Source: Emiliania huxleyi CCMP1516 (lineage: Eukaryota). From it: DNA of 64,000 nt. Positions 5,389 to 30,175 of this stretch are shown piece by piece. Where the stretch lies: NCBI RefSeq assembly GCF_000372725.1, contig NW_005201176.1, positions 62,001 to 126,000 on the forward strand, read 5' to 3'. The translations under genes were made by a program, and so were the position numbers. Positions within the stretch are counted from its first letter, which is position 1. Each line of letters begins with the position of its first letter. Under the pieces are notes generated by a model. The model ran no database searches and had not been told where the DNA came from. It was given only the letters and a program-made list of their open reading frames with translations.

Positions 5389-7351
5389 TCAGCTCCCGCC
5401 GCGTGCCTCGATAGTGGCAGCAAAGTGGAGCAGCTCCTCCTCGCTGTCGCTGCGGCTCGCGCCCGAGCAGTGAAAGGAGCACGCGCTGCTCGCGCGGGGC
5501 CCCTCGGCCGGCTGCGCCGCGAGTCGCGCCTCGAGCAGCGCCACGCCCCGCGCGAGGCAGGCCTGGCTCTCCCTGACCTGTGCGAGCAGCGCCATCACGT
5601 CGCCATCCGAGGACGAGGGTCGCAATGGCGGCGGGTCGAGCGCCGCGGCAGCGGCGACCCTCGACAGCGCCTCGCCTCGCACGGGCGGCTGTGCCGCCCC
5701 CTCCTCTGCAGTCTCCGAGATGGCGCTCACCGTCGAATGCGTCGGCGCCGGGGCGCCGTGCAGCGAGCTGAAGGTGCTGGAGCGCACCACCGTGACGGCG
5801 GGCGCGGCGGGGGTCGGAGGTATCCTTGGAAGGCACGGCGTGGTCTGGCTCGCACGCGGCGGGGCCCGGACCAGCAGCCGGCCGGGCGCGAGCGCCTCGG
5901 AGCGCGAGGCCTGCTTGAAGACGCCGATGCACCGCTTGTGCGCCGCCGGAGGGCCGAGACCGCCGGCGGCGCTCCGTCCCGAGTGCCGCAGTTCTGCCTT
6001 GTCGTTCCACCGGATCTGCTCCCGGTGGAATTCGCGGTCCGACGAGCGCAGGCGGCGCCGCTCCGGCGTGGCGAGGCGGCTGCCGGTGGGCGGCGCGCGG
6101 CTGCCGGCGGCGCCGAGGCTGAGCACGCCGTGCTCCGCGAGCCACTCGACGTCGAGGTCGGGGAAGATATGGTGGCAGTACTCGAAGAAGGTGATGCCGC
6201 CCGAGCGGCTCTCATCGAGCAGGCGGAAGAGGCGGCGTGCCTGCGAGGGACAGTGGAGGTGAGGGGCGGTGGGGGCGAGAGGGGCGGTGGAGGCGAGAGG
6301 GGAGGTGGAGGCGAGAGGGGCGGTGGGGGCGAGAGGGGCGGTGGAGGCGAGAGGGGAGGTGGAGGCGAGAGGGGCGGTGGAGGCGAGAGGGGCGGTGGAG
6401 GCGAGAGGGCGAATGCGACGTCGGGTCGAGAGCGGCGGAGATCGGGGCCAGTGTGCGTGAGGCCAGCCTCGCTCGCCTCAGAGGGTGAGTGATCCAGGCC
6501 GAGGTCCTCGCAAAAGCGGCGGAACTCGAGGTAGTCGAGGTAGCCCGAGCCGTGCGTGTCCGCCTCCTCGAACAGCACCTGAATGCCCGCGAGCGAGATG
6601 TTGCGGTCGATGCACTTGCGCTGCACCTGCAGCAGGCCAGCTCGGGTACATTCGTCCGTTGCTCGGTGGTCTCGGGTGCGCTCTAGGGGTAGTCTCGCCG
6701 CTGCACCTGCAGCACGAACTGCATCATCTCGCGCTCCTCCCAGGCCATCGAGAAGTTGTTGCCGACGATGGCGAGCGGCATCGCGAGCAGGATGATGCCC
6801 GTGATGATGGCCAGCGAGCAGACAACCTTGCCGAGGTGGCTCTCGGGCGAGACGTCGCCGTAACCCACCGTCGTGAAGGTGACGATCATGCACCTGCTCA
6901 CACCCGCATCCGTGAGGAGACGCTGTTCACACCACAGACGGCCGGCGTCGGTGACGACAATGCACCAGATCGCCTCGCCGAGGTCGTTGAAGGGCGTCTC
7001 GCCCGCCGGCGCCGTCCGGTTGTCGTTGGCCGGGACGACGACCAGCTCGATCCGCTCGAGATAGTAGATGACGGCGCCGAAGAAGAAGGCGCCGATGAGC
7101 AGGAATGTGAGAGGCACGAGCAGCGCGCGCATGGAGAGCGAGATCGCGCGGAAGATGACCGTGGTGTCGGGGTTGAGCCTCGCAATCTTGAGGATCCGGA
7201 CCACGCGGAAGCAGCGCAGCACCTCGCTCAGGACCTGCAGTGGGGGTGGTGGTGGCGGCGGCGGCGGCGTGGCGGTGGTGGCGGTGGAGCGGTGGGGATG
7301 GTGGTGGTGGCGGCGGCGTGGTCTCTCGCCACCACGGCGCATTCCTCTCTC

Positions 7352-7445
<94 letters not shown>

Positions 7446-8270
7446 CGCTCGCTCGCTCGCTCGCTCGCTCGCTCGCTCGCTCGCTCCCTCCCTCCCTCGC
7501 TCCCTCCCTCCCTCCCTCCCTCCCTCCCTCCCTCCCTCCCTCCCTCCCTCCCTCCCTCCCTCCCTCCCTCCCTCCCTCTCTCTCTCTCTCTCTCTGTCTG
7601 TCTGTCTGTCTGTCGCAACCTGCAGCACGTTGTCCGAGTCCCCAAGATGGTTGGCGCACTGGTTGACATGTGAGCTGCCCGCGGCGAGGTCGAGCGTCAG
7701 CACGACATAGTCGGGCACGACCGACACCACGTCAACCCACCAGTACGCAGAGAGGCACATCTCGCCCACAGACCGCTTTGAGATGGTCCGCAAGATCAGC
7801 TCGACGGTGAAGGCGCCCGTTAGAGCCCAGCCGGTCAGCCAGAGCGCACAGTCGTCCAGGCTGCGCAGCCCGAATGAGTTTGTCTCGAGCAGCATCATCA
7901 CCACCTGCGCAAAGATGGCCAGCGTCGCCGCCAGCGAGAAGAGGAAGGCGCCGAGCGACGACTGCCAGTCCTCGAGGAATAGCTGGAGGTGGAGCCGCCA
8001 GTCGCGGCTGTGCTTGGCGTACCGCGCCCAGGCGTAGTGCCGCGCTGCGGGCTGATAGTACTCCAAGTCGATGCGGTCGCCGCTCTGTAAGGACTCGCGC
8101 AGCCGGAGCGTGCTCGCCCGCCTCGTCTCGCCGGGCGCCTGCAGCGGCGAGCGCCGCCACTTGTAGGTGAAGGAGCCGTACGCGGCGACGCACGGCTCGC
8201 CTTTGGCTGCCGAACTCAACACGCGCCCTGATAGTCGTCCGCTGGGCGTGGCGTGGGCGAGCTCGACCAT
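5389..8270 (-). CDS. Voltage-gated K+ channel (6TM) with C-terminal EF-hands, multi-exon
   Basis: S1-S3 in the 7620-8270 exon, S4 LRCFRVVRILKIARL, pore TFTTVGYGDV, S6 LAMPLAIVGNNF. EF-hand loops DTHGSGYLDYLE and DESRSGGITFFE. Introns include 7234-7619 (approx.), 6894-6965 and 6627-6706. Start uncertain. Confidence 0.9.
6258..6410. repeat. 18-bp tandem repeat (GAGGGGCGGTGGAGGCGA)n, probably intronic
   Basis: About 8 near-identical units between the two EF-hand exons of the K+ channel. Confidence 0.85.
7354..7613. repeat. Compound microsatellite (CT)n-(CTCG)n-(CCCT)n-(CT)n-(CTGT)n in a K+ channel intron
   Basis: Directly visible. Confidence 0.95.
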
Positions 8271-8424
8271 ATGTGAGGAGCTCCTTCCCCGCTTATTGGA
8301 CGGTGCAACTTCAGCTGTTTTAGGGTCTCGAGGCCTCGAGGTTGATGCCCCGATCCACTGTTTTCTAAGAGCGTCCCGCTCCCCGAGCCCGAGTCCCTTC
8401 CAGCTACCGACGCGATTCTCAATG

Positions 8425-8711
8425 GCACGTCCGCCGCCTTCCGGAGGACCTCACGGACCCCATTCCCGAACCCGCCGAACGACTCGAACGGCAGCAGCTG
8501 CACGTCAACGTCCTTATCTTCCCTCCCTGGCGTAGCGATAGTCCCCACCATAGGACGGTATGCGGCGGTCGCCGCCCACCACCCTGCCCCCCCTGGTATG
8601 CCAGCGCCCGGTCCCTTGCCCTCTCTCGCCCTTGCTCTTCCTCTCCCCCTTCATCCATGCCGCTCCCCCCGTACCCCTCCCCCTCCCCCTCCACCTCTCG
8701 TCCTCCCCTCC
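8425..8711 (-). mobile_element. Fragment of an RLE-clade (CRE/NeSL/R2-like) non-LTR retrotransposon endonuclease region, copy 1
   Basis: Minus strand reads DVQLLPFESFGGFGNGVREVLRKAAD, like the P..FETFGG.G motif of RLE domains. Near-identical copy at 40787-41060. Confidence 0.6.
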
Positions 8712-9553
8712 NNNNNNNNNNNNNNNNNNNNNNNNNNNNNNNNNNNNNNNNNNNNNNNNNNNNNNNNNNNNNNNNNNNNNNNNNNNNNNNNNNNNNNNNN
8801 NNNNNNNNNNNATTCAAAAGATATAATTTGGCCCAATGAAAACTCCATTTTTTCCAAAAAGTGTAAACAAGTTTAAAATGAACCAACGTCTATACTCACA
8901 ATTGGCACGCACTGGCACTAACACAGGTACACCACAGGAACCGCTATGTGTGTGCCGTTTCCGTGCCTAGTAAAAAGAAATCCGCGCTGGCGGCGCCTGG
9001 CGGCGCTCGCCCGCGCTGGCGGCGCTCGCCCGCGCTGGCGGCGCGAGGCGCTGTCGCGCTGTCGCGGCAATCGCGGTGCTCACCGCGCCAGCGATGTGGT
9101 CGTTCAAGCACTGCCCTGCCCGGCACAACCAGGTTAGTGGCACGGCACCCGCGGCGCTCCTGTGCTCGCGACGTGCCCGCGCTGCGCGTCGGTCGCGACC
9201 TACGCGCCGGCGCTCGGCGCACCCAAGTCCAATCTGGAGTTGATCGTTGCTTCCCTTTCGCGAGGCGGTGCGGACTGCCGGAGGCCTCGGTCTCCCCTCT
9301 GCCCGTGCGACTTTCGCTAACTCCCTCAGCGTAGATCGTCTCTCTTCGGCGCGCTCGAGCACGTTTGGCACCAAGAGGCTTTGATTCTTACGACCCTCAC
9401 CCGCCAAGGCAGGTGTGCACTCTGCTAGTACTTGTGTACTCACACCACTACACTGTGGGGTGTGCCCGAGCATGATGTATGTGCGCGTCTGTGTGTGTGT
9501 GGGACAGACGTTGTTGTCCTATGCGCGGGGCTTCCCGCGGGGACCGAAGACGT

Positions 9554-9586
<33 letters not shown>

Positions 9587-9686
9587 AAGAAATCAAGCCA
9601 GAAAAAAGAAAATTAGAATCAATGCCGAAGAGTCGCCGAAAGCTGTTTGTCACGCCTTGTTAGGGCGGCTGCCTTCTGGTTGCTGC

Positions 9687-11884
9687 ATGGGTCTCACCGC
9701 CCGCCTGCCGCGCTCGTGCGTTGAGACCCTCGTGGGCTCCGTGCTCTGGCCAGCACTCTTTCCGATTGTGTTTCCATTATTCGTTCTCGTGTGGTCACCA
9801 TTTCTCGCGCTCGGCCTCTGCAGCTCCGACAGCGCTGTCGGCGTGCCTCCCGCCCTCCTCGCCTGGCGTCGCCTTCCATATCTGCTTCCGATGGTGCTCC
9901 TCGTCGACCTGCCGATTGCCATCTTATTCTTCGCGACAAATCTTATCGAGCAACTGATCCTCCGGAGCCCCCTCATCCTCGCCGTCTACAGCCTCTGCCG
10001 GCGCGCCTCACAGCTCCCGAACCGCGAGCCGACGCTCCCCGACACCGAGTCCGGTCATCACGCTCGCGAACGGCCGCACGCAAACACCAACGACGGCGCC
10101 CGCTATCGCGAGCACGACTCCGTCTGGGCTGCCCTCGAGGGCGACGGCGACAAGGTCCGGCCGGGCGATGTGAAGCTGATCAGTCTGAACTGGCTCATGG
10201 CGCTGGCAGAGCGGGGCGACGTACTCCCGCGGCGGCAGGACCTGCCAGAGGAGGCCTTCTTAAGCTCTGCTCAGCTGAGGCGGATCGAGCAAGGCGCCAG
10301 GCGCGGCTTTGACCTCGCCGACTTGGAGGAGGCCTTGGAGCGGAACATCAAGGAGCCCTCCCTCTCGTCCTGGCTCGGCTTTTCCGCGAGCTTGTTCTTC
10401 GGCCGCAAGCGCAACCCCGACGGGCTGCTCCCGATAATCTCCGTCTCCTACTGCTGGCTCGAGGCGGCGCATCCAGATCGTGAGGGCCGCCAGCTCCAGC
10501 TGCTCTCCCGCAAGCTGCGGGGCCTCTACGGCGGGCGCGGCCTGCTCGGCGCGTGCCGCGAATACGGCTTCTCGGACATGGTGAGCTGCCTCCCGCGCCT
10601 TGCCCATCGCCACTCCCTTCCTCACCGCCACTCTCTCCCTGGCTCGCGCAGGGCGTGTTTCTGGACTGGAGCTCGGGCTACCAGAAGGACCCAGCGCTGT
10701 TTGCCGAGCGGCGCGCGTATGAGGCGAGCCGATCGGCCGCGGAGAAGGCCGCCTTCGATCGCATGCTGGACAACACGATGGTGAGCACACGCCGACCCCC
10801 TCCTTCTTCCCCTGATAGCGTCACAACATGCACCGCTCTCACGGCACGTTGGCTTTACATTCCGCATTAGGACCTCTGGTACGCGCACGCCTCGATCACG
10901 GTCGTGCTGCTCACGCAGCTGCCCGACGAGCTGCCCGCCGGCTTTGACCGGAGCCGGACCTACGACGCTCGCGGCTGGACAACATTCGAGCGGTGCTCCG
11001 CGGAGCTGGGCGCAAAGCCCGCCTCGCTGGGCTTTGCCAAGTGGAAGCTCGTCATCGACGTCGCCAGCGACGACGGCGGCGCTCAGCGGCGGCTCCCCGC
11101 GACTCCGGAGCGCATGGCGAAGCTGCTCGCCGCTTGCCGCTTCACCAACGGCGCCGACTCGGCGACCGTACAGGCGCTCTACGAGAAGACGGCGAAGACC
11201 GTACTGGGAACGGTCGAGAAGCTCTACTACATCGGTCTGCCGCTCGTGCGTGGCGACGCGTGGACTAGCCCGGCGCTGCTGGCGGAGGCGCTAAACCATT
11301 GCGAGAGCCTCCGGACCCTCGCCCTAGCTGGGAATCGCCTCGACGACGAGGGCATGGCGGAGCTTGCGGCGGGGCTCGAGGACCGCGCGCTCCCGGCGCT
11401 TGAGTTCCTCATCCTACCGGCAAACCGCTTCGGCGCGCGCGGCGTCGGCGCGCTCTGCGGCGCGTTCCCTCGCGGCGTGGCGCCGACGCTGCAGATGCTC
11501 GGCGTCAGTCAGACACCTATTGGCGACGAGGGAGCAGTGGCGCTAGCTGCGGCGCTAGCGACGGGCAAGCCGTCGCATGCGCTGGACTTGTCGTACTGTG
11601 ATGTGGGCGACGAGGGCGCGATGACACTCGCGGCTGCCCTCCCGGCTGCAGCTCAGGGATGTCGCGTGATCGCCGCGAACAATCGGATCGGCCTCGCGGG
11701 CCAGGCGGCACTGCTAGATGCGCTCGAGGCGAAGCACGGGCCGCAGCTCCTGGGGCATGGCATGGCGGTCACTCAAATGAACTTGCTTCCCTGGTCGTAC
11801 TCGCTCATGCGCGCGTTGGGGCTGGCGCCGTGTGCTCGAGAGCGGCCGAGCCGCCGCCATGTAGCATGTAGGCACACCTTTTAA
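9687..11884 (+). CDS. Membrane-anchored HET-like domain + RI-type LRR protein, 3 exons
   Basis: ATG 9687; hydrophobic N-terminal helices. GT-AG introns 10581-10651 and 10781-10870. Motifs IISVSYCW, VFLDWSS.YQ, M.LWYAH, RGWTTFE, then LRRs (L.LAGNRLDDEG, IGDEGAVALA, VGDEGAMTLA). Confidence 0.75.
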
Positions 11885-12052
11885 TGTGTAAGGTGTAGTG
11901 CAAAAATAATCGGTTTGCAAGAAGAGAACTACCCAATCAAGACACCGGCACGCTTCCGTTTGGCTCACATGCCCCCTCCGCGCTGCCGCGCAACGCCCGC
12001 TCAAAGAGCTCGAGATAGCCCGCCTACTCCCCAGAAGAAGCCGCCATAGAAG

Positions 12053-12403: not shown

Positions 12404-13550
12404 ATGGCCTCTCACCGCATCGGCGCGCGCGTCGCGGGCCTCTCGCCAGCGCAGCTGTGCGCCATCATCGAGGCGCAGGCGGGCGCGAGCGACGCCGCGC
12501 TGCGCGTGGCGGAGGAGCACGTCGCTCGCCTCGTGGAGCAGCCCGAGTGGGTCCTCTCCGAGGTCCTCCTCTCGCCGGACCTCGCTCCACACATCCTCGC
12601 CCAGCTGCCGACCACGGAGCACGCCGTCAAGGGGACGTGCCGCGCGTGGCGCCGCGGCTGGAAGGAGACGCTGCCGAAGCGCGAGAGGCCGCGCCTGCTC
12701 GTGATCGGCGGCTACGGTGAGGACAACGACGAGTTTGTCAACTCGCTGGAGCGGTACGACCCTTCAACAAACGAGTGGGAGGAGGAGGCTGTGGCGCCGA
12801 TGCCGACGGCACGAGATTTTGTTGGCACGGCGGTGATCGATGGCAAGCTCTACGCGGCGGGCGACAATAGTGAGGACGGCGCAACTTCCAATGGTGGAGC
12901 GGTACGACTTGGCTGCGAACGCGTGGGAGGCGGTGGCGCCGATGGTGACACCACGCGAGAACCACGACGTGGCGGTGCTCGACGGCAAGGTCTACGCTGT
13001 TGGCGGGTACATCGGCGACGACGACACCACCCTCAGCTCGGTGGAGCGGTACGACCTGGCTGCCAATTCGTGGGAGGCGGTGGCGCCGATGGCGACGGCG
13101 CGGGGCCATCACGCCGTGGCGGTGCTCGACGGCAAGCTGTACGCTGTTGGCGGGTACAGCGACGGCGGCGGCCGCCTCAGCTCGGTCGAGCGGTACGATC
13201 CGGCTGCCAATTCGTGGGAGGCGGTGGCGCCGATGGCGACGGCGCGGGCAGCTCCCACCGTGGCGGTGCTCGACGGCAAGCTGTACGCTGTGGGCGGATG
13301 GAACGGCGGCACCTTCAGCTCGGTCGAGCGGTACGACCCGGCGCTGGATGCGTGGGAGGCGGTGGCGCCGATGGCGACGGCTCGGTGCCATCACGCTGTG
13401 GTGGTGCTCGACGGCAAGCTCTATGCTGTGGGAGGCTACGACAACGGCTACCTCAGCTCGGTGGAGCGGTACGACCCGACCGCCAACGCGTGGCAGGCGG
13501 TGGCGCCGATGGCGACGGCGCGGGCCTTTGCTGTCGCGCTCCTGATGTAG
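12404..13550 (+). pseudogene. F-box-like + Kelch-repeat protein with one frameshift near 12892
   Basis: VLLSPDLAPHILAQL..TCRAWR, then repeated [27 protein letters not shown]. The frame switches between the two ORFs at about 12892 (real frameshift or sequencing error). Confidence 0.8.
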
Positions 13551-14026: not shown

Positions 14027-15351
14027 ATGGAGGCTCATCTTGGTGGAACGCAGACGGCCGATCACGAGGCGAACGCTTCTGAGGATATTGCTAGGGATGT
14101 TGCCGGGGGGGGCCTCCGCGTGGCCAAACGCCCTTGGCAGCCCGCCGAGGATGACCGCCTCCTTGAGCTCGTGCAGCGGTTTGGTCCGCACCGGTGGGGC
14201 AAAATCGCGTCCCACCTCCCTGGCAGGATTGGCAAGCAATGCCGCGAAAGGTGTGAGCCCCGTGGCACACAGCACGGCTAGTTATCCGCCCAGCACCAGA
14301 ACCTCCCAGCCCGGAGCCGCCCCCCACCACCACCACCGCTGGTAGGTGGCACAACCAGCTCTGTCCGAGGGTGAACAAGGATGAATGGACCGTGGAGGAG
14401 GATGCGCTGATCTTGCACCTTGTGCAGGAGATGGGCACCAAGTGGTCCAAGATGACGACGCTGTTGCCCGGCCGTACGGACAATGCCATCAAGAATAGAT
14501 GGAATGCGAGGATGCGTCGCGAGAAGCGGCGGCAGAAGCGGTCGCCATCCCTCGCAAGACCCGAGGTGGACCCCATCGGGACGGGGAAGGCTGAGGAGGC
14601 CACAGGCAAGACCTCAGCCGACGAGGCGAAATCCTGCTCCCTGCCCGCACTGATCATCGACGACGGCACCTTCGCCACTGACCTTTTGGAGCGAAGTGCC
14701 TTTGCGATGGAGGAGCCTGTCTTCCCCTACCCCGTCGTCGCGACCGTTAAGGTGCCTGACGGCACCTTCGCCAATGACCTTTTGGACTCCCCCGTCATCA
14801 CGACCGTCGAGGCGGCGTCAACGATCGAGGCGCCGGCCTGCAAGTCGCCAACCAAACGCAACCGCGGCGCCGCTGGCTTTGCGAGCCCGGCCTGCTTCCG
14901 TCCACCTCCAGGCTGCAGCTCCATCTATGCGCTTGCTGCGCGCGCTGAGTCTCCCGAAGGCCCCCCCACCGACGTCGCCAACTACCTCACGCCGCCCGCC
15001 AAACGCGCAATGTCCAAGAAGAAGAAGGCGAAGGCTGCGGTTCCTTCATCTTGCACCTCGAGTTCATACGAAGAAGAAGAAGACGCTCTGTTGTCCTTTG
15101 AGTTGTTCGACCAGCTCTCTCTGAACCTCAACAACGAGCGCGTTGACGATCTCGCGCACCTTGGCGGGCTGCACGATGAGATGTGGGTCCGGTGCGGGCA
15201 TCTCGCGGACAGGTGGTTCGATGGATCGATCGTCGAAGCGCATACGCACTGGCAAGTGACTCAAGGAGACCAGGAGAGTTGCTCGACATGTGACCTCGTG
15301 GACCTGCCAGATTCGCCCGACCTGTCCGATCTCATCTCTGACCTGAGTTGA
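14027..15351 (+). CDS. R2R3-Myb transcription factor, copy 1
   Basis: KRPWQPAEDDRL...WGKIASHLPGRIGKQCRER|WHNQLCP.VNKDEWTVEED...WSKM...LPGRTDNAIKNRWN. GT-AG intron 14251-14345. Confidence 0.93.
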
Positions 15352-15922: not shown

Positions 15923-17637
15923 CTAGACGTTGCTCGCGTCGGTCTCGCTCGACGAGGTGCGCGCGAGGCGGCTGCTCGCCGCTCCGCGCGGCGCATCCGA
16001 CGAGGCGGCGCCGCCGTCGCCCTCGAGGTGCGCAAAGGCGTCCGCGAGGGCGTTCGCGCGCGCCTCGGAGGTGTTGTCCGCGTCGATGCCGGCGCAGTGC
16101 GTGATGGCGTAGGAGAGCTTGGCCTTTGCGATGTGGAGCGAGGTGTACTTTGGCCACTCGATGGAGAAGAAGCAGGTGTGCGCCACCGGCAAGTGCTGGT
16201 CGGGCGTGAGCGTCTCGAGGGCGTGGACCCGCATCGTCGCGTCGCCCCACTCTGCCTCGGTGAGCGGCAGCCTAGATGGGGGGAGGGGAGGCGGTCAAAA
16301 GGGAGGGGCGCGCCGCGCCACTCCGCCTCGGCCGAGGCGGCGGCCGGTTGCGCCCCCAGATGAACTTGAGGAAGGCGCGCCGCTGCTCGGGGGAGAAGGC
16401 CTGTTCACAGCGGCAGGTGTGAAGGCCGGCGGCGGCGTGCGGACCGGCCGCCCCGCCGGCGAGAAGAAGGGGGGGGAGGCCTCGAGCGCGCTCCAAAAGT
16501 GCTTGACGTGCGACTGCGACGGCGAGACGCCGACGCCGTACCGCGTGTGCCGTCGCAGCGCGGCGAGGTCGATGTCGGCGACGCCGCACGCCAGCCGCTC
16601 GAGCTCCTTTCCGGTGAGGAGGGCGAGCAGGCGGCCGCATGGGACGATGGAGGCGACGCCGGAGCGCATCGCCGCGTAGCCCGCGCGGCCCTCGGCCAGC
16701 CGCGCGGCGAGGGCGAGGCCGCAGTAGGCGTGCCGGTTGTGGAAGGTGACTGGCAGCGCCGCGCCGCCGTCACACAGCTCCACCAGCGAGCCGTCGGAGA
16801 GCTCCACCTCGAAGCAGTTGAAGAAGAGGTCGCCAAAGAGCGCCGCGTCCACGCCCTCGCGGTCGATGTGCCTCAGCGAGCGGAGCGAGTTTGCCGCCGC
16901 GTCGTCGAAGCCGGCGAGGTCGGCCTCGTCGAGGGGCGAGCCGACGAGCACCTTCCACACGTGCAGCTGTGAATAGTCCAGCTGTGAACAGTGCAGCTGT
17001 GAATAGGAGCACCTTCCACACGTGCAGCTGTGAATAGTCCAGCTGTGAACAGTGCAGCTGTGAATAGGAGCACCTTCCACACATGCTCGCACAGCTCGAG
17101 GTCGAGCACCGTGTCCCGCTGCAGCAGCGCGCAGCCGAGCAGCAGCCCGAGCATGCGCCACCCGTCGAGCGCTCGCGGAGAGCTCGCCGACGGGCGCGCC
17201 AAGAAGGAGGAGCGGTTGGAGCCGAGGCTGTGCTGCCCGTTCGGGCAGCGCTGCAGCAGCTCGGACGAGTCGGCCTGCAGCTCCGCGCACAAGTTGGTAA
17301 AGGCCTCGCGGTAGAGCCCGCCGTAGTCGTCGCCAGCCTCGCCCACAAACTTGACGCGGAACCCGCGGTCGCGCCGCCGCATCTTTGCCATGTCGGCGCC
17401 CCGCAGCCCGGTCAGCATCTGCGAGAAGAGCGTCCCGCTGTGCCTGTTCACAGCAGAGGGTGTGAAGAGACGCTGTGTTCACACCTCCTGGAGAAGAGCG
17501 TCCCGCTGTGCCCCGACTCGCGCCGCGCCGCAGGGGACCCCTCGCCGCCCCCCACCTCCACCGCTAGCGCCGACCCGCCGCCGCCGCTGCTCCCGCCCCC
17601 GCCGTCGCCGCCGCCGCCGCCGCCGCCGCGCCCTCCG

Positions 17638-17699
<62 letters not shown>

Positions 17700-19915
17700 C
17701 TCCCCGCCGCCTCCTTCCTCGCTGCCGCTGGCGCCGCCGCCCTCGTCGCCCTCGCCGCCCGCGGCGGGCGACGCCGAGCGCGATGCGCCGCCCGCCGCGC
17801 GCTGCATCGCCTCCTCCGCCTCGAAGCGGTTGAGGCGCACAACGACCGCCTCCTTGGACTTTTGGATGGGTGGCGTGTCGGCCGCCTTGTCGGGCAGCCC
17901 CCCCTCCCACGCGCGCATCTTGACGTCGTAAAAGACGAGGTGGCGCAGCGCAGACAGCCGCCCCCCCAGCGTGCCGGGCGCGGCGCACCAGCCGGTGAGT
18001 GCATACGGCAGCAGCGCCTCCGCCTCGTGGTTGAGCCGCACCTACTCCGGACGGGGGGGGGGGGCGCGTGAAGAGACGCCGTTCACAGCAGCGCCTCCGC
18101 CTCGTGGTTGAGCACCAGCAGGGCCCACCGCGCCGCGATGGGCGCCGTGTCGCTCTCTGCCGTCGGAGCGAGCGCGGCGAGGGAAGGGCAGCTGCCGCCG
18201 AGCTTGGCGAGCTCTGCGCGCGCCGCTCCGGGCCTCCACGGCGCGAGCAGCTCTGCCCGCGAGACGTCCCTCATCCTATTCACAGCTGCACTGTTCACAG
18301 CTGGACGATTCACAGCTCTGCCCGCGAGACGTCCCTCATCCTCCGCTCGCTCTTGCCGCGCGTGGCGAGGTAGCGCGCGTACGCGATCAGCTCGAGGTCG
18401 AGCTCCGCGCACCAAGCGCCCCACCCGTCCGGCGGCCAGCCCTCGCACCCCGGCCCCTCGTTGCAGTCCCGCATCCACCGACCAACCACGCGCCTCGCGG
18501 CCGACAGCACCGCGGGCGGTGGCAGCGCGGCGGCGGCGGCGGCGAGCGGCGCGCGCAGCCTCTCCTCGCTCGCGGCGGCGGCGGCGGCGTACCCGTCGAG
18601 GACGGCGACAAGCACCGCGCCGAGATCGGCCAGGCGGCGCAGCAGCTGCGCCTGCCGCGGGGGCATGCCCACCGCGCCCGCGCCGGCGCCCGCGCCGGCA
18701 CCCGCGCCGCCCGGTGCGGCCGCCGGCCCGAGAAGCGCGACGCGCGCCTCCACGGCGGCGCTGCGAGGCAGGTGCACCTCGGCGAGCGGGGAGAGGCCAG
18801 GCAGCGAGGCGAGCAGCTCGGAGTACAGCTGCGCGTGCAGCGGCAGCAGGTTGGAGGCGTCCCTGTCGGCGGCGTGCCACCGCACCGCGCGCGCGAGAGG
18901 CAGCAGCCGGGAGAGGCGCCAGCTCGCTCGCTGGTCCTCGTGGGGCGAGTGGGCGGCCGGCGGCGGCAGCTGCAGCAGCGCGAGCAGGATGGCGCACGCC
19001 TCGGGCTTGGAGCGGCCGAGCGGGTGCTGCAGCAGCGCGAGCAGGTCGTCGAAGACCTGGCGGGAGAGCAGCGCGGACGGCGCCTCGTCCAGGAGGAGCC
19101 TACCGCCCACCGAGACCGCCCGAGCTCACCCGAGCTCGCCCGAGCTCGNNNNNNNNNNNNNNNNNNNNNNNNNNNNNNNNNNNNNNNNNNNNNNNNNNNN
19201 NNNNNNNNNNNNNNNNNNNNNNNNNNNNNNNNNNNNNNNNNNNNNNNNCGACTTGAGCACTTGAGCACTTGATAGGTCGATTCCGCCTGGGTAGCAGCCT
19301 GGGAGGGCGTGCGAAAAAGAATAGCGAAAAACACTTTCCTCGATCTCGCGCAGCAAAGGAAACCGCTCACTAGATCGAACGCACAATTCTTTCTCACACA
19401 CTGTTCTTCACCTCTTCCACCTCTACATCAGGAGCGCGACAGGGAAGGCCGGGGCCGTCTCGATCGGCGCCGCCGCCTGACACGCGTTGGCGGTCGGGTC
19501 GTACCGCTCCACCGAGCTGAGGTAGCCGTTGTCGTAGCCTCCCACAGCATAGAGCTTGCCGTCGAGCACCACCACAGCGAGAGAAGGGAAGAGAGGGGGG
19601 AGAAGGGGAAGAGATGGGGGCGGCTCGTCCGCCTCGACGAGCAGCGCGGCGGCGCCCGGGATGTGCACTCTGCGAGGCGCGCTGCTCCGGCTACCCGCCG
19701 GGCGCCACTCTCCCCCGGAGAGTGAGACGGCGGCGGAGAGCCCGCGCCTGCTAAGTCACCATTCCGGATGACCCGAGGGGTGCCTCGCCATTGCCGGCGG
19801 CGGAGAGCCCGCGCCGCAGATCGGCGAGCGCGTCGTCGCGCAGCAGGCAGGTGAACTGCGCCGGAGCCCGCCCGAGGAGCGGCCCGAGCGATGCGAGCGC
19901 ACCGCGCGGCTTGTC

Positions 19916-19973
<58 letters not shown>

Positions 19974-22900
19974 TGCCCGCCGGCGGCGTGCGCGAGCTTG
20001 AGCAGCGCGAGCAGCTGCGGCGGGTCCGAGGCGACAGAGGCGACGGCGACCGACATCGGGTCGCTCCCCTCCTCGCCGCCGTCCGACGCGGCGGGAGCCG
20101 GCGGGCGCGAGAGAAGCAGCAGCGTCGCCTGCCGCATCGCGAGCCGCGCGAGGCCGAGCTGCAGCGGCATCACCGCCCGCCGGCAGAGGGTCGCCGCTGA
20201 GAGCGGCACACCGCCTAACGGATGGCCCACCGTGCTCGAGCATGAAGCCTTCGCCCGGCTCGCCGCTGAGAGAGCGGCACGCCGCCGTCGCCCGACGCCG
20301 GGGCGAGCCACGCCGTGGCAGCCGCCTCAGGCACCGACAGCTCCGCGGCAGACGCGCGCAGCAGCAGCGGCGCGTCGCTCGCCTCGCACTTTGTGAGCAG
20401 CGTGACCGCCGTGCCGTACCCCGCCTCCGCCTGCTCACGCGGCACGCAGCTGTGAAGAGGCGCCGCTCACACCGCGCACCGCACCAGCCGCGCCCCGCCC
20501 CAGCCTCGTCGGCGACGCCTTCGGCGGGCGCGTCCACCGCCACCACCAGCCCGACCTCCCCGCCCGGCAGGCGGAGGGGCGAGCCGGCGACCAGCTCGAG
20601 CGCCGACAGCGGCGGCAGATGCGCCGGCGCGCGAGGCGCCTCGCCCTCGCCGAGCTGCCGCGCCTCGCCGCCGCCCGCGCCAGCCACGTGCGATGCAAAC
20701 GCCCCCCCGCCGGAGGGGCTGCCGGACTGCAGCGGCTGCGGGCTGCTTCCGCCGCCGCCGCCCGCGCGGACGGCGGCGGAGGCGGCGGCGGCGGTGGCGG
20801 CGGCCTCGTACCCATAGTCCATGGCGGCCAGGTTCGCGGCCGGCACAAACTCGCCTACTCAACGGCGACTTCCTCCCACGTCTTCGAGCTGGTCGGAGAG
20901 TGCGTGGTGGACGAGGCCCGGGCGGGCTCGCCGATGCGGGCGGCGGCGCCGGCGGCGCCGGAAGGGAGGCCGCTGCTCTTGCTCGGCGCGGGGCGGGGCA
21001 CCTCCACGCGGAAGGACTGGCCCGGCCGGATCCCCTGAGGCAGCACGGTGCGGAAGCGCCGCCCCGCCTGGTCCTGCACGAGCACCGACTGGCCGGGCGC
21101 CACCGGAGCACCGCCCGCCGGCCAGGTCACGGAGAGGGTGATCGAGCCGCGCGGGGCGTCGGGCTGAGCGTCGCGCCCGGCCGGCGGCGGCATGAGGAAC
21201 CTGGGGAGGGGGCCGGGCAGCTCCTCACCAGAGTGGCTGGCGTGTGTGTCCTCGGCCGGCGGCGGGCGGACACTTCCTAGACACTTCCTAGACACTTCCT
21301 AGGCAACAGACCGCGCACTCGGCCGGCGGCCGTGAGTGCTCTGCCGACCGAGGCCGGTCGGCACCCCCCGTCCCGGAGTGTCTAGGAAGTGTCTAGGAAG
21401 TGTCTAGGAAGGTACCCACCAGCCGTCTGGGCCGACTGCGGGCGCCCCATCGAGCCTCGTTGCCGCCGCCAGCTCGCCGAGGCGGTCCGAGGTGAGCCCG
21501 CTCTCCCCCCCCGCCGCCTCCCCCTCCGCACCGCCCCCCTCCTCCCCACCCCCCTCCCCCTCCTCCTCTCCGTCACTGGCGGGCATCGGCGGCGGCTCCT
21601 CATCACCCGCCTCCTCCTCCCCCTCCGCCGCCGCCGCCGCCACGTCCATCAGCCAAGAGACGGCGGCGTCGGGGTTGCCGCGGCTCAAACGCAGGGCCTT
21701 GTTGGCTCACCGCGAAGCGTCGATGCCGAGAGGAGCCGGGAGGAGCCGACAGGAGCCGAGAGGAGCCGAGCGGAGCCGAGAGGAGGCGAGAGGAGCCGAG
21801 CGGAGCCGAGAGGAGGCGAGAGGAGCCGAGCGGAGCCGAGAGGAGGCGAGAGGAGGCGAGAGGAGGCGAGCGGCGGCGTGAGGCGTCGCCTTGTGGCACA
21901 CAGCTGGCGATGCGTCGATCCCGAGCTCTGCCACGTTCTGCGACAGCGCGTACGCCGCCTCCCACCTAGTCGCGTGCCCAGCCACACTACTCACCCACCA
22001 CCACCCAGCGGTGGGAGGACGCACGCAGCCGCGCGCCGCGATGACCGCCCGAGCCGCGGCGTCGGCGGCGGCGGCAGCGGCGGCGGCGGCGGAGAGGAGG
22101 GGAGCGCGGCGCCTGCGCCCTGCGGCGACGGCGGGGCGGCGACGGGGCGGGGCGGGGCGCCGTCGGCGCGGGTGGAGGACTCCATCGCGGCGACGAGGCG
22201 CGCGAAGCCCTCGTCCACCTCGTCCGGCGAGGAGCGGCGCCCGCTCGCCTCCCTGCCGCTGCCACTGCTCCTGCCGCTGCGCGTCGCCGACGACGTTGAA
22301 TCGAAGCTCGCCCGCTCCGCCTGCTCGCAGCTTGCCTGCGTGTGGCCGCTGCACCTCTCTCTTCCTCGCAAGGAGCCGCCCCTCGCCCCCTCCTCCGCCT
22401 GCGTCTCCTCCGCCGCCGACCCGTCCGCCGCGCCAGAGCCGCCCGACACAAGCGGGAGCGGCGGAGACTGCGAGCGGCCATCGAGCAAGAGAGCCGCCTG
22501 GGCGCGAGAGGAGCCCGAAGATGGACCGAGACTGTCCCGAGGTGAGGCATCCGAAGAGGAGGGCTGCGCCTGCGCGCGCGCGGAGGCGAGGAAGCCGCCA
22601 CCCTCCCGCAGCGGCGCCGCCCGCCGCCCGGCCAGCAGAGCCCGCAGCGACGCCTCCCCGGCGAGCGCCAAGGCCTAGGCTCGGAACAATCTCGGGTGGG
22701 TCTGCGGCGATCTCGGGCGGCGTGGGAGCCGCCCGGTGCGCGAGAAGGCAAGGGGCCTCGGCGGGCGGGCGGCGGGTGGCGGCGAGCTCGGAGACGGTCA
22801 GCTCTGCTGCGGCTAGCAGGCGGCCGCACTCGTCGCGCGAGAGCGGCGTCCGGTCGGGCGAGGAGCGGGTGGCGTCGGCGACGAGGAGGGGGACCAGCCC

Positions 22901-23587
22901 GGCCGCGGTGGCCGCGCGGGCGCCGTCCGCGGCGCCGCAGAGCCACGAGAGGGAGAGGAGGGCGCGGCACCGCAGCAGCGACCCCGCGGGCGTGGCGGCG
23001 GCGGCCGGCGGGAGCAGCGCCTTGTACACGCCCAGCAGCGCGGCGCGGGCCTCGTCGGCGGCGTCGGCGGCGCCGGCCGTGGAGGGAGGATGGGCCGGCC
23101 GGCCGCCCGCGTCGGAGGCGGCGGGGAAGAGCGCGGTCGGCGCGAGGGCTGCTAGGGGGTGGACCCGCACCGAGCCTGCCGCGGCGGTCGTCAAGTCACG
23201 CCACGCGTCGCCGTCGAGCCGGACCTGGGGCAGTCAACACGGGCGAACAGAGAAACTCACCGGCGGGCCGGCGGCGGTGCGGAGGGGCGAGGAGGAGTGT
23301 GTGGGGCCAGCCCAGGAGGAGGTGGTGAGTCAAGTCCGTGAACCATCAGGCCGCGCCGAGAGGTGCGAGCACATGCAGGGGGGGGGGGGGGGGGAGACCA
23401 GGTGCGTGTCCGCCGACGACGCGCCGCCCGCGCCCGGCTCCGCGCCAATCAGCGTGCCTCTGCGGGCCCCCTTCGCAGTGCCGACGGAGACGCGCGCGCC
23501 CGCATGCGCAACCCAAGTGTGCCCTCCAAGCACGCAGATCGCGCCGAGCGCCTCGGAGGCGGCCCTCCAAGGGAAAGCGGCGGAGGA

Positions 23588-23652
<65 letters not shown>

Positions 23653-24646: not shown

Positions 24647-24693
<47 letters not shown>

Positions 24694-27600
24694 ATAGCGC
24701 GTCGACAGCTTCGCCCAGCTGCGCGCACGCTAGCCTTGCGCCGGGCGGCGGGGGCGCCTTGCGGCCGTCGTGGGGCTGGAGGAGGCCGCCCAGCGAGGCG
24801 GCGCGCGCAAAGGCGGGGTTCGGCCCTTGAGGCCTAGGAAGCGTCGGCGAAGTGTCGGCGAGGTGTCGGCGAAGTGTCGACGACATGTCTAGGCGAGGTT
24901 CGGCCCTTGAGGCCCTGCGCTCGGGCTGGCCCGCAGGCTCGGAGGAGCGCTGCCTCCGAGCCCCGCGGCGGAGGCAGCGCCGTCGACGAGCCCCCTCGCC
25001 TGCCGCCCGAGGGAGGAGAAGGGGTGTGTGGAGGGGGGCGTGTGCGTGCAGCGGCGGAGAGGGGGAGGGGGGGGGGGGGGGAAAGGTACCCCCCTGCTGC
25101 CCGAGGGAGAGGGCGGCGGCGCAATAGTTGAGGTGCAGCAGGCGGGCGGCGCGTGCGACCGCGTCTCCGCCGCCGCCCTCGCCCGCTCCGCCGCCGCCGG
25201 CAGCGAGCGCCTGCAGCCGCCGCAGCACTCCGCACCGGAGGGCGAGCGGGGTGGCGTCGGCCGGCGCGGCCTGCAGCGCGCACATCGCCAGCCGCGCTGT
25301 CTGCTGCGGCGTCGCACTGTCTGGCTCGGCGGCAAGGTGCAGCACCACCGCGCTGAGGAGCCTCTCGTGCGCCTCCACCAGGGCCGGAGTGGTGCACGCC
25401 GACCAACCCTGCCTGCTGGCGGTGCGGCCGGCGCTCTCCGTTGCCTCGGCCGCCGCAACCTCCCACGCCTCCCGCAGCGCGCTCAGCACACGCGCCGCGG
25501 CCGCCGGGTGGGCGCCGTACACACGCAGCGCCCTGCCACACAGCCGCAAGCCGAGGGCACGCGTCGCGCCGCGCGCCGCGCGGGCGGCGAGGCAGTGTCG
25601 CATCTCTCGCGCCGACACGCGCGAGCGAACCCACTGAAGCACCTCGGCGCAATCTGCAGGCAAGCCCGAGTCGGCGTCCTCCGGGGCCGCCCCGCCGGCC
25701 AACGCCGCCGCAAACTTGGAGGAGGAGGAGGCGAGGCCGGCCGATGCGACCGACGGCGACCGCGCGGCGAGGGGGAGCATCTGTGGCCTCGCGCTGCCGC
25801 GGGAAGCGTGCCTACCAGGCATCGACGAGAAGCGTCTAGCGAGTGTCTAGGGAGTGTCTAGGGAGTGTCTAGGGAGTGTCTAGGGAGTGTCTAGGGAGTG
25901 TCTAGGGAGTGTCAACGAAGTGTCAACGAAGTGTCTAGGAAGTGTAAAGTCCGCCTACTCGTGATGAGCCACTCGCAGCTGGGGAGTGTAGAGAGTGTCT
26001 GGGAAAGTGTCTAGGAAGGCGCCATGCTCGCTCGAGCAGCAAGTCCGCCTGCTCCGCCAAGGCACCGCCCGGCTCGCCTCCTCCCACGACGTAGTCCTCG
26101 CCGCCCACTGACCTGCGGCGAGTGCCGTCGGCACCGCCGCTCGCGTCCGCCCCCTGCTTGGTGTGCTCTGCGAGCGCCGCCTCCCACAGCAGCCGCGCCT
26201 AGGAAGTGTCTAGGAAGTGTCAACGAAGTGTCAACGAGGTGTCTAGGAACCTCCCACAGCAGCCGCGCCTCTGACCATACCGCGGCGAGCGCCTCGACCG
26301 CCTTTGAAAGCTCATCTTGCACCTCCGTCTCGACGGACAAGCGGCCAGTCGCCGCCGCCTCCGCCGCCGCCTCCACCGCACCCTCCGACCTCTCCACCCC
26401 GCCCTGCACCTCCGCCTCCGCCTCCGCCGCCTCCGCCGCCACCTCCGCCTCCGCCTCCGCCTCCGCCTCCGCCGCCTCCGCCGCCACCTCCGCCTCCGCC
26501 TCCGCCGCCGCCGCCGCCGCCTCCGCCGCCGCCGCCGCCGCCTCCGCCGCCTCCGCCGCCGCCTCCGCCGCCACCTCCGCCTCCGCCTCCGCCGCCTCCG
26601 CCGCCACCTCAGCCTCCGCCGCCTCCGCCGCCTCCGCCGCCTCCGCCGCCTCCGCCGCCACCTCCGCCTCCGTCACCTCGACCGCCCCAGCTGCCGCCCC
26701 GCCCGCTGCATCCTCCTCCTCCACTGGCTCTGGCTCACCACCTGTCCCAGCCTCCGACCCTCCCACCTCCACCTCCGCCACCTCCGCCACCTCCGCCACC
26801 TCCGCCACCTCCGCCACCTCCGCCACCTCCTCTTCCTGCAGCTGTGCCGCCGCGGTGATCTCCGCCGCAATCTCCTCCACCCCCTCGGCTTTTGAGTCCG
26901 CGCCGTCGCCCTCGCCGCCGCCGCCGTCGCCGCCGTTGCCCTTGTCGCCGTCGCCCTTGCCGCCCAGCCCCCCCGCCCCTCCGTCCACCGGCACTGGGAT
27001 CAGAACCACAGCGGGCACCTCCCCCTCCGCGCCGCCGCCCTCGCGCGCAGCCACCTGCGCCGCCGCCTGCGCCGCCGACAGCGACTCGGCGGCGGCAGCG
27101 GCCTCCGCGACGCCGCCTCGCGCGATGAGGAGCCACGCAAAGAGCGTGCGCAGCGCGCGCGCCGCCGGAGCGGAGGAGGCGACGCCAACCCACTCACCCG
27201 CGTGGCGCACGCTGTCGCCGCCGTGTAGCCGTGACAGCAACTCCACCGCCTGGCCCTCGCCAGCCACCAGCGACGCGACCACACGCCGCTCGACGCCCTC
27301 GGCTGCCGCCGCAGCGGCGGCGGCGGCCTCGGCGGCGGCCCCGTGCGGCGGCGGCGGAGGCGGTGGCGCCAGCAGCGCCTCGAGCTCAGCCGTGGAGCCG
27401 CGCTGCTCGGAGCCTCCTCGCTCGCCCGACGAGGTCCGGTGCGGTCCCAGCGGGGCGCGCGCGCGCGGGTCGTCGCACGCCGCGGCGGGGAAGAGACGGG
27501 AGCCGTGCAGCCACCTCGCGTGGCGCAGCTCGGCGGCGGATGGAGGCTGCGCCAGCGCAAGCATCGCGCCATACCGAGCGAGGAGGTTCGAGACAGCGAG

Positions 27601-30175
27601 CGAGAGGCGCGGCACTGGAGATCCTCCGCCGCCACCTCCCCCTCGGGGCTCGACCGCCCTCACCTCGAGCCGCCACCCGTACACGTCAGGCCGGCGCGCC
27701 GCCTCCGCCGCGCCGCCCGCGGCCAAGGTCAGTCGCAAGTTGCCGGGTGCGTCGGTGCCCTCGGCCGCAACGCCGCCCGCCGCCGCCCCCGACACGTCGC
27801 CCGCCTCCGAGGACCCGCCCGCACGATGGCGCTGCGGATGCGGCGACGCGTCCTCCGCAACCGCGTGCAGCAGCAGCGGCGACGACGCCTCCCCCTTCTC
27901 CTCGAGCAGTGGCGGGGCGCCGCCCCCCCGCTCCGCGCGCCCCTCCGCCTCGCTCGCCGCACGGGCGATCAGAGGCCTCGCGCCGCCGCCGCCGCCGTCC
28001 TCGCCAGCCCGCGCCCCCCCCTCGCCTCCCGCGCCGGCGTCGTCCTCCGCCGCCTCGTCCTCGGCCTCTGCCGCCTCCGCCTCTACCTCCTCCCCGCCAC
28101 CCTTCGCCTCCGCCTCTACCTCCACGGCCGCCGCCTCCGCCGCCGCCGCCTCCGGCTCCGCCGCAGCCGGCTCCTCCGCACCGCGCGGCGCCCGCACGGC
28201 CGCCGTCGCCGCCGCCGCCTCCGCGTCGCCGCGGCGGAGGTAGAGCAGGGTGCAAGCGCCTCCTTCGATGACGACGTCGCGCCTCGGCCACCGCCCCGCC
28301 GGACCGCAAAGAAGGATCCGCCGCCCGCGCCGCTCGGTCGCGGCGGCTGCTGCCTCGGCGAGCAAGCTGCGCGCCTCGGCGCCGACCTCCTCCTGCAGCG
28401 GCCCGCTGTGCGCCTGTTCACAGCGAGAGCCGTGAAGAGGCGCGCCTCACCCTCCTCCTGCGCCGATCGGCTCCTCACCTCGACCATCTCCCGCACGGCG
28501 GCGGCGGCGACGGCCGGGTCGCCGAGCTGGCGCAGCTTGACGCGGGCAGCAGAGAGGAGAGCCGTCGCCCGGCGCGACGCGGCGTAGATGGCCATGTACA
28601 GCGAGTAGGCGGCGGCGCCGTTGCCCTCCGACTCCATGCGGGCCGCGCGTCGCTCGAGCGCCGCAGAGTCGCGGGCAGGGCCCCCGTAGATTGCAGCCTA
28701 CGAGATACGGGGAGATATGGGGAGATATGGGGAGATATGGGAGATATGGGGAGATATGGGCAGGCTACGAGGTGAATCCGCCAAGGTCTGGGCGAGACTA
28801 CGGCGGAGTGCGCGTCCTCTCGAGCGCTGGCTGGAAGACAGGAGCACGTCTTCCGCTTCTAGGGATGGCAGCCTCATCCGACAGGCACCAGCGGGGCGGC
28901 AGCGGAGGCGCGTCCAGCTGCAGGAGGATCGAGTCGCCCGGCGGAAGCTCGCAGCGAATGTCGCACCGAACCACCAGCTGCGACGCACCGTGCACCTCGA
29001 TGCGCCGTCGGAGCGACGCGCCACCGCCGCCTCCTCCGCCACCGCCTCCTGCGCCTACGCCGCCGCCGCCTCCTCCCCCGCCGCCATCCAACCGCGGCAG
29101 CGGATGCGCAGACTCCACCACGGTCGGCGCCGCCGCCGGGGCCGCCCCCGCGCCGCTATCTTCGCTGCTCCCCCGCTCAGCGCGCGAGCTGCTCGCGGCC
29201 GCGCGACCGGCGGCCGGCGTCCTCCCCTCTGCGGCGGCGGCGAGTCGGAGCTCCTCGAGCGAGTGCGAGAGGTCGCAGAGGGAGGGCGCGAGCGCCGCCG
29301 CCCACTTGAGCCGCGGCGCCGCCACCAGCAGGCAGTCCAGCAGCGGAGGCAGCAGCACCTGTTCTCATGATGAATGAGGGATGGGCGACGACCCACTCGC
29401 AACCGGTCGAGCAGCGGAGGCAGCAGCACCGAGAGGAAGGTGCCGCGCAAGGCAGTGTGCGGGTCGGCTCCGGCGGCGCGCGTCGCGTCGCACAGCGCGC
29501 GCGCCTCGGAGAGCAGCGCGACGGCAGTGCGTAGCAGCGCCGACGCGGCGGGGCGGTCGATTGGCGAGGTGCCGCGCCCGCTGTCGCCGCCGGGCCGCCT
29601 GCGCTGCCGCCTCCCCGCCCCGCCGAGGCCTTGGGCCCCGCCCGAGGGAGGGGGCGGGAAGAGCTCGCCGCCGCCGCCGCCCGCCTCCTCCTCCATCGCC
29701 TCTGCTACCTCGGAGAGCTCGCTCAGGTTGTCCTCCTCCTCCTCCGCCCACGCCACCTCCTCCGCCCCCCCCGCCACCATCGCCCTGCCCGCCGCGTCCG
29801 CGCCGGAAGGCGAGGCGGCGACCAAATTCACGCGCACAGACAGCTCGGTGAGCGACGCGGAGAGAAGGGCGAGCGCCGCCGGCGCCCCCTCTGGAGCGGC
29901 TTCCCCCGCCACCGCGGCGCGCGCGGCGACGACGACGGCGTCGACAGCGGCGACGAGGAGCTCCGCCTGCGGCTCTATCGTCGACACGTCGCCCTCGTGC
30001 CCCAAGAGCAGCGACCCGTCTTCTGCGCCGCCCTCGTCCTCCTCCTCGTCGTCTGGCAAACCATCGAGCGGAGCCAGCTCGGCGGGCAGCGGCACTAGCA
30101 GCTCGGAGCAACGCGGCGCGACGGCGGCGAGCTGCATCAGACCGCCGTGCAGCAGCGACACCGCGTCGTTGGCGT

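What the first reader, a model, noticed from the sequence alone, without database searches (positions are those of the whole stretch)
6627..29429. About 13 short introns whose 5' end copies the start of the next exon: a candidate intron-generating system
Seen: inferred minus-strand introns 6627-6706, 6894-6965, 16272-16344, 16401-16480, 16952-17073, 17444-17511, 18042-18115, 18276-18340, 20431-20504, 24834-24913, 26199-26268, 28414-28463 and 29359-29429 (50-122 nt) begin with, or are flanked by, a 5-30 nt copy of the downstream exon start. Some copies are exact (17444: GCACAGCGGGACGCTCTTCTC; 26199: GCGCGGCTGCTGTGGGAGG; 29359: GTGCTGCTGCCTCCGCTGCT). Others are decayed (6894: GTGCATTGTCGTCACC vs GTGCATGATCGTCACC; 16272; 20431). 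Removal restores motifs such as IW|CMIVTFTTVGYGD and WGRNR|LP. Established: Introner-type elements create introns using splice sites from their ends or short TSDs. Inference: here a long, variable target duplication supplies the donor (GT, GC or GA), and unrelated fillers supply the AG. The gradient of decay suggests repeated intron gain over time, by insertion or break repair.
Basis: partly seen in the sequence, partly recalled or inferred. Interest (0 to 1): 0.9.

Follow-up and report, generated by a model that had tools for sequence, protein, structure and literature searches.

The report
Introns seeded by copying neighbouring introns
In the bloom-forming alga Emiliania huxleyi, many short introns begin with a 12-36-base copy of the next exon and end in a piece that matches other, often nearby, introns, which likely means that DNA repair keeps making new introns by copying the tail ends of old ones into genes.

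Summary
The window is coccolithophore DNA (Emiliania/Gephyrocapsa huxleyi complex). RNA contigs or transcript-derived proteins confirm six of the 13 introns; frame and homology support the GA-AG one; five remain untested. The 122-nt insert is missing from other strains' DNA, which keep one copy of its 15-nt repeat; its splicing is unproven. In 122 metagenome loci the same build recurs: a 12-36-nt copy of the next exon's start (donor GC>GT>GA) plus a filler, together about 60-80 nt. Best reading (0.6): repair of staggered breaks by template switching copies an existing intron's 3' half, so introns beget introns without a transposase. One intron position (6627) is old. Closest known: Daphnia break-repair introns (4-12-bp repeats) and Introners (3-9-bp fixed duplications). 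This scan noted a similar footprint before in another haptophyte (e1-2577349). Why such structures seem confined to exons is unexplained.

The parts
6627..6706 (-). GT-AG intron in a K+ channel/EF-hand gene; 16-nt repeat straddles both junctions; position appears old
   Evidence: joined in P0045, P0046, P0064, P0073; ORFs of three 62-67% homologues break at this site
6894..6965 (-). GT-AG intron, 16-nt decayed copy of next exon + family-E filler; lineage-specific position
   Evidence: joined in P0045/P0046, read through in DNA-type P0047, site uninterrupted in P0049-P0051; E score 20
16272..16344 (-). GC-AG intron in HECT domain, decayed copy of about 28 nt
   Evidence: skipped in RNA contigs X13 and X1, kept in DNA runs X3 and X11
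16401..16480 (-). GC-AG intron, weak copy (about 12 nt), family-E 3' end
   Evidence: skipped in X13; joined in MMETSP proteins
16952..17073 (-). strain-specific insert: two units of 15-nt target copy + 46-nt filler; filler is an inverted copy of the filler at 18276; AG|GT lies inside the target copy; splicing unproven
   Evidence: DNA run X11 skips all 122 nt while keeping the two neighbouring introns; P0001, P0015, P0018 are joined here but retain 16401; 42-nt inverted match with one mismatch
17444..17511 (-). GC-AG intron, exact 21-nt copy + family-E filler; tandemly repeated in some populations
   Evidence: skipped in X1; filler at very high summed depth in DNA runs; tandem copies in L114, L094
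18042..18115 (-). GT-AG intron, about 30-nt copy with a 3-nt deletion + family-E filler
   Evidence: spliced form in RNA run X14 (depth 603) beside the retained form (167)
18276..18340 (-). likely GA-AG intron, exact 28-nt copy + 15-mer filler; the 65-nt unit looks amplified as a tandem array in other strains
   Evidence: removal restores the homologous frame; unit loops back on itself at depth 5384 against 148 single-copy in X8
   Evidence: not tested against RNA
20215..20285 (-). further candidate (16-nt decayed copy)
   Evidence: not tested against RNA
20431..20504 (-). candidate GC-AG intron, decayed copy + family-E filler
   Evidence: p=0.034, E score 17.5; not tested against RNA
24834..24913 (-). 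candidate GC-AG intron, 23-nt copy + 11-mer tandem filler
   Evidence: not tested against RNA
26199..26268 (-). candidate GC-AG intron, exact 19-nt copy + 11-mer tandem filler (same family at 21269-21411 and 25834-25945)
   Evidence: not tested against RNA
28414..28478 (-). candidate intron, likely 65 nt from a GTGAG donor rather than the 50 nt given; decayed 28-nt copy + family-E filler
   Evidence: not tested against RNA
29359..29429 (-). candidate GT-AG intron, 24-nt copy + unique filler
   Evidence: not tested against RNA
31224..31299 (-). further candidate with GA start, exact 18-nt copy
   Evidence: not tested against RNA
15923..19098 (-). 3' part of a giant HECT E3 ligase gene; removing six segments gives one 897-codon open frame
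5389..8270 (-). K+ channel/EF-hand gene (approximate ends); one exon is 100% identical to a named E. huxleyi protein

Best explanation
These are real spliceosomal introns built from a 12-36-nt duplicate of the next exon's start plus a 35-55-nt filler, and they likely arise when repair of a staggered DNA break switches template by microhomology and copies the 3' half of an existing, often nearby, intron before rejoining. Shown: the anatomy, the splicing of six window introns, filler families, local direct and inverted matches, an empty allele. Inferred: the duplicate's first G[C/T/A] after an exonic G becomes the donor (this alga tolerates GC and GA), the copied tail supplies branch region and AG, splicing restores the mRNA exactly, so only such events survive in exons; when the filler lands inverted, both sites can come from an AG|G inside the duplicate. 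Each new intron is a template for the next, so successful tails (family E, 10-11-mer arrays, AT-rich tails) spread without a transposase. The flanking repeats then recombine, giving tandem arrays of the unit or precise loss, until mutations in the intronic copy stabilise it. The enzyme (polymerase-theta-like) is inferred from the scar only.
For: Family E: 65 of 118 unique copies have a copy of their own downstream bases upstream (score>=10) against 0.3% of 3000 shuffled pairs; 90 of 134 exceed the null's 99th percentile. Unbiased repeat scan: 161 of 223 spaced repeats lie 59-82 nt apart and 78 of these 161 have AG|G[TCA] at the repeat start (next dinucleotide 24, inside-repeat control 21). Duplication length is variable, 12-36 nt. 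Many unrelated filler families share the build. 19 of 161 fillers match their own locus best, 2.5 expected; five of the 19 I read as parts of tandem arrays. Inverted local copies: L040 (44 of 44 nt, 70 nt away, in a transcript-confirmed intron), L001 (47 nt, 544 nt away, running through the donor's AG into its exon), L088, L108, and window 16952 from 18276. Fillers carry the end of another intron's duplicate in 8 of 22 testable cases against 0.6 in shuffles (about three are only fragments of E's own repeat unit); traced junctions show 2-4 shared bases (read by eye). Gain at new sites.
Against: Blind repair should leave more neutral, unspliceable duplication-plus-filler scars outside exons; only 11 of 161 lack any splice reading (about 29 expected if the 83 non-start cases were random) and window 33.5-64 kb holds none of this build. 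Most fillers (142 of 161) have no template within the 0.4-5 kb fetched. Family E has a fixed 3' end and hundreds of copies, as a mobile element would. Same-locus E copies are only slightly more alike overall than others (p=0.044, 14 pairs), and the commonest 11-mer family shows no local clustering (p=0.45). The 6627 position is old. A YTNAY branch motif is no commoner in non-E fillers than in their reverse complement (24 of 48 vs 25 of 48). The loci were picked by family E, so they over-represent such introns. No enzyme was tested.
Confidence: 0.6

Rival explanations
1. Family E and the other fillers are non-autonomous mobile elements (Introners) inserted by target-primed reverse transcription or an unknown integrase that makes an unusually long staggered cut.
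For: High copy number, fixed 3' end and ragged 5' end of E, variable duplication as in LINE insertions; imperfect palindromic ends that read CTGT...ACAG both ways; a published survey lists five E. huxleyi Introner families.
Against: Many unrelated fillers, some AT-rich or telomere-like, share one build; inverted copies of neighbouring DNA, one including exon bases; no poly(A) tail, no Rfam match above chance in four loci, no stable hairpin (z -0.5 to -1.0 for E); no transposase or RT among 38 window ORFs scanned.
Confidence: 0.2
2. The introns are old and only their 5' halves were rewritten: repair copied spliced mRNA or cDNA across the junction for about 25 nt and then returned to the old intron (aborted intron loss).
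For: Explains why the copy starts exactly at the junction, why it is found in genes only, and the old 6627 position; copy at the 5' end 78 vs at the 3' end 13 of 161.
Against: Cannot give near-identical fillers in unrelated genes, inverted fillers or the empty 16952 allele; homologues with introns of their own run through these sites.
Confidence: 0.1
3. Partial reverse splicing of an excised intron into a transcript, then reverse transcription and recombination.
For: Would target exons at G|GY and end exactly at AG; sense fillers are the large majority.
Against: Inverted fillers; L001 filler includes donor exon bases; L040 filler stops 3 nt short of the donor's AG.
Confidence: 0.07
4. Assembly artefact or chance.
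For: The 16952 insert itself was seen only in the window; no laid contig bridges its junction.
Against: Independent DNA runs and assemblies hold the other introns; RNA removes them; statistics.
Confidence: 0.03

Closest known systems
Daphnia pulex neo-introns from staggered double-strand-break repair (Li et al. 2014, PMC4202315; abstract and passages read)
   Same: New introns with a direct repeat of adjacent exon bases at the boundary; presence/absence within a species; some AT-rich fillers.
   Different: Repeats there are 4-12 bp (33 cases) and the source of most inserts is unknown; here 12-36 nt, making up a third to half of the intron, and fillers trace to other introns, forming families.
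Introners / introner-like elements (Gozashti et al. 2022, PMC9860276, passages and supplement rows; Roy et al., bioRxiv 10.1101/2020.10.14.339549, abstract and first part of Results; Huff et al. 2016 recalled, not held)
   Same: Element carries the 3' site, donor (GT/GC/GA) is recruited from the duplicated target; both orientations possible; many copies. E. huxleyi is listed with 653 elements in five families of mean length 70, 70, 37, 37, 37 nt; family E may be among the 37-nt ones (inference; sequences not seen).
   Different: Published duplications are 3-9 nt and fixed per family; for E. huxleyi they are given as '?' (4 families) or 'N' (1). Here the length varies, the 5' boundary is ragged, and unrelated and inverted local fillers share the build.
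Polymerase-theta-mediated end joining with templated insertions and tandem duplications (PMC8654963, PMC12153051; passages read)
   Same: Microhomology, inserts copied from break-flanking DNA, patchwork repeats from repeated template switches, duplications.
   Different: Known as a mutational scar, not as a self-amplifying source of introns; dependence on the enzyme is untested here.
Tandem genomic duplication model of intron gain (Rogers 1989; as summarised in PMC3296678, passages)
   Same: Splice sites arise from duplicated exon sequence (AG|GT inside the repeat at 16952 and L040).
   Different: Here only part of the intron is duplicated exon; the rest is foreign filler (intron 3' ends match the upstream exon by <=2 nt in 11 of 13).

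Membership tests
Introner | Many similar introns at unrelated loci | tested here: met
Introner | End-to-end similarity with fixed ends | tested here: not met
   5' half is locus-specific; distance from duplicate end to E start ranges from -13 to +18
Introner | Short target duplication of fixed length (3-9 nt) or none | tested here: not met
   12-36 nt, median 23, in 53 clean cases
Introner | Terminal inverted repeats | tested here: inconclusive
   E ends are an imperfect 10-nt palindrome (8 of 10), also readable as direct repeats; folding not above shuffles; other fillers have none
Introner | Empty orthologous sites | tested here: met
   (except 6627)
Introner | Autonomous partner or transposase | not testable with these tools
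   no whole genome held; none among 38 window ORFs
Daphnia-type break-repair intron gain | Direct repeat of adjacent exon at the intron boundary | tested here: met
Daphnia-type break-repair intron gain | Repeat 4-12 bp, insert without a traceable source | tested here: not met
Polymerase-theta templated insertion | Insert copied from nearby DNA, direct or inverted | tested here: met
   19 of 161 vs 2.5 expected
Polymerase-theta templated insertion | Microhomology at junctions | tested here: inconclusive
   2-4 shared bases in the few traced pairs, read by eye; no formal control
Polymerase-theta templated insertion | Dependence on POLQ | not testable with these tools
   needs genetics
LINE/SINE retroposition | RNA template: sense copy ending at a transcript end, tail or Pol III promoter | tested here: not met
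   inverted copies of neighbouring DNA, one spanning an intron-exon junction; no tail; no Rfam family
Tandem genomic duplication | Whole intron is duplicated exon | tested here: not met

The most novel reading that the evidence does not exclude
Haptophytes run a transposase-free intron chain reaction: a repair process aimed at transcribed exons duplicates about 25 nt and pastes in the branch-and-acceptor half of a neighbouring intron, and this has produced a large share of all E. huxleyi introns (7 of 11 in one transcript-mapped gene, 6 of 6 in the HECT region), their GC/GA donors and their intronic minisatellites.
Probability: 0.35. Interest if true: 0.92.

Novelty: new variant of a known kind. 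Interest (0 to 1): 0.8.

Why it matters
Where new spliceosomal introns come from is a long-standing question: large-scale gain has been tied to transposons, and break-repair gain was known from small sets whose inserts had no traceable source. Here thousands of datable events are likely on record (each intron carries its own clock, the divergence of the two copies), donor and recipient can be paired, and the process is active among strains of a culturable, globally important alga. It also gives one origin for this genome's GC/GA donors and repeat-filled introns, and warns that the 30-nt repeats collapse or expand in short-read assemblies and mislead gene models.

Tried and rejected
No whole genome was held, so no genome-wide count. 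My first null was inflated by GCC repeats and my gapped control let the anchor slide; both were replaced. Viral contigs hold no family-E match. Contigs cannot show splicing of 18276 because the repeat equals the graph's overlap; 17857-17948 had no cover in the four runs. Folding of E is not above shuffles; no Rfam family for four loci, one with a tRNA-like filler. A nucleosome-linker idea (recalled; papers not held) got no support: 73 spacings between neighbouring duplications show no periodicity by eye. Branch-motif enrichment not found. Summed contig depths are no copy numbers; they are used only as signs of high copy or arrays. The 'goes back' joints may be graph paths and were not used. 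Ten literature searches returned no description of this build in E. huxleyi; passages of PMC2784329 and bioRxiv 2024.05.26.595999 do not mention it; PMC11782384 does not name haptophytes. The 2013 genome paper was not held, the Gozashti supplement was cut and showed no sequences, and bioRxiv supplements are closed, so an earlier mention may be unseen.
Full report
Organism and genes. The window is GC-rich eukaryotic DNA. An exon at 6968-7234 is 100% identical to a protein named EMIHUDRAFT_455390 of Emiliania huxleyi, and the best-studied metagenome locus clusters with named E. huxleyi proteins, so window and loci belong to the E./Gephyrocapsa huxleyi complex. Two introns lie in a K+ channel gene, eleven in a giant HECT ligase gene.

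Observation. All 13 segments are as described. With a fair control, 8 of 13 match the next exon strongly, 2 marginally, and 2 of the remaining 3 have a repeat that straddles the junctions. RNA contigs skip 16272-16344 (X13, X1), 16401-16480 (X13) and 17444-17511 (X1) while DNA runs keep them; X14 holds the spliced form of 18042-18115; X1 is RNA by guess only. Full-length proteins join across 6894 and 6627. The GA-AG segment at 18276 is not resolvable with contigs, but only its removal aligns the upstream frame with a paralogue (score 102 vs null max 54; retained 39). Five segments were not tested against RNA.

An empty allele. DNA run X11 keeps both neighbouring introns yet skips all 122 nt at 16952 with a single 15-nt repeat, and three database proteins are joined here while retaining the 16401 intron. 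The insert is two units of repeat plus a 46-nt filler, and that filler is an inverted copy of the filler at 18276 (42 nt, one mismatch). No laid contig bridges the insert's junction, so it is private to the window's source and its splicing is unshown.

A genome-wide build. Six window introns share a 40-nt tail (family E), which is at very high summed depth in DNA runs. Of 143 matches, 25 were dropped as duplicates or for short flanks; 65 of the remaining 118 have a copy of their own downstream bases upstream, against 0.3% of shuffled pairs. A scan that assumed nothing about ends found 223 unique spaced repeats, 161 of them 59-82 nt apart; 78 of 161 have AG|G[TCA] at the repeat start. Donors are GC 49, GT 11, GA 8 and the preceding base is G in 63 of 68 unambiguous cases. 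Clean duplicates run 12-36 nt. Besides E, fillers are 10-11-mer arrays in either orientation, AT-rich palindromic tracts, telomere-like repeats and unique sequence. In a conserved ETF-QO gene mapped with a transcript-derived protein, 7 of 11 introns carry a significant copy. The loci were chosen by E, so these shares are not genome averages.

Gain or old sites. An 81%-identical ETF-QO orthologue on a 10-kb contig has none of the 11 introns, and 80-83% relatives whose ORFs break elsewhere read through the first four sites. Three K+ channel homologues read through 6894 but break at 6627, so that position is old. A 50% HECT homologue on a 74-kb contig reads through four window sites; orthology is unproven. 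That these contigs are DNA is inferred from their length or ORF breaks.

Source of the fillers. 19 of 161 fillers match their own locus best, 2.5 expected; five I read as array parts. In L040 a transcript-confirmed intron holds an exact 44-nt inverted copy of the next intron's 3' part, 70 nt away, with both splice sites from the duplicate. In L001 an inverted 47-nt copy runs through the donor's AG into its exon, which an excised intron could not supply. Fillers carry the end of another intron's duplicate in 8 of 22 cases against 0.6. Against this, overall same-locus similarity of E is weak and one of four testable repeat families shows no clustering.

Instability. The repeat-filler unit expands: six of 118 E copies are followed by a near-whole copy of themselves, and the 65-nt unit at 18276 loops at about 36 times single-copy depth in X8. 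The same repeats would allow precise loss, so an empty allele can mean loss as well as gain.

Mechanism. Most likely (0.6, inferred) a staggered break is filled in, duplicating the target, while the 3' end switches by microhomology to a nearby intron tail and back. Tolerance of GC and GA donors makes many such products spliceable, and each becomes a new template. Rivals are an Introner with a long cut (0.2), rewriting of old introns' 5' halves from mRNA (0.1) and partial reverse splicing (0.07). Unexplained: nearly all such scars are intron-sized and spliceable, and none lies in window 33.5-64 kb, which hints at targeting to exons.

Comparison. It works like Daphnia break-repair gain (repeats 4-12 bp) and uses splice sites like Introners with 4-8-nt duplications, but fails their fixed-end and short-duplication tests. 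E. huxleyi Introner families are listed in a survey with duplications unresolved. I found no printed description of the long duplication or of local copying in ten searches, with the gaps named above.

Noticed in passing
window 18248-18342 in runs X8, X9: The 65-nt duplicate-plus-filler unit appears amplified about 30-fold as a tandem array: stacked introns with zero-length exons, which would need skipping or recursive splicing.
   Followed up: partly
L070:1768-1831, L100:144-216: Introns whose filler is telomere-like (CCCTAA-type) repeat, which contains a branch-like CTAAC; may be telomerase or telomere capture at a break.
   Followed up: no
L086, L116, L060, L040:168-237, L058: Fillers of about 20% GC, rich in TTAATTAA, in a 65% GC genome; three in one 400-nt stretch of L086.
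   Followed up: partly
L025:978-1180, L026, L101: A filler family with a T-loop-like GGATTCGA motif (SINE-like by eye); no Rfam match.
   Followed up: partly
window 14257-15351 (+) and 37380-38474 (-): Two near-identical Myb-domain ORFs of 364 codons in opposite orientation, flanking the giant gene region; possibly a mobile or duplicated unit.
   Followed up: no
window 1273-2985 (-) and 42089-44119 (+): Intron-less F-box/RCC1-repeat genes with 156-nt repeats, again in two copies.
   Followed up: no
window 19430-19620 and 12740-13550: A Kelch-repeat fragment beside the N gap interrupts the giant gene and matches the Kelch gene at 12.7-13.5 kb; insertion or misassembly.
   Followed up: no
window 2427-3506 (+): ORF with a weak Pfam hit (E 5e-6) to the HYD1 ADP-ribosyltransferase family.
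   Followed up: no
window 24999-25109 (-): Candidate intron with the 17-nt repeat at its 3' end (copy of the upstream exon end), the rarer polarity.
   Followed up: no
window 6894-6965: This 72-nt intron has no in-frame stop and is read through in a DNA-derived protein (P0047).
   Followed up: partly
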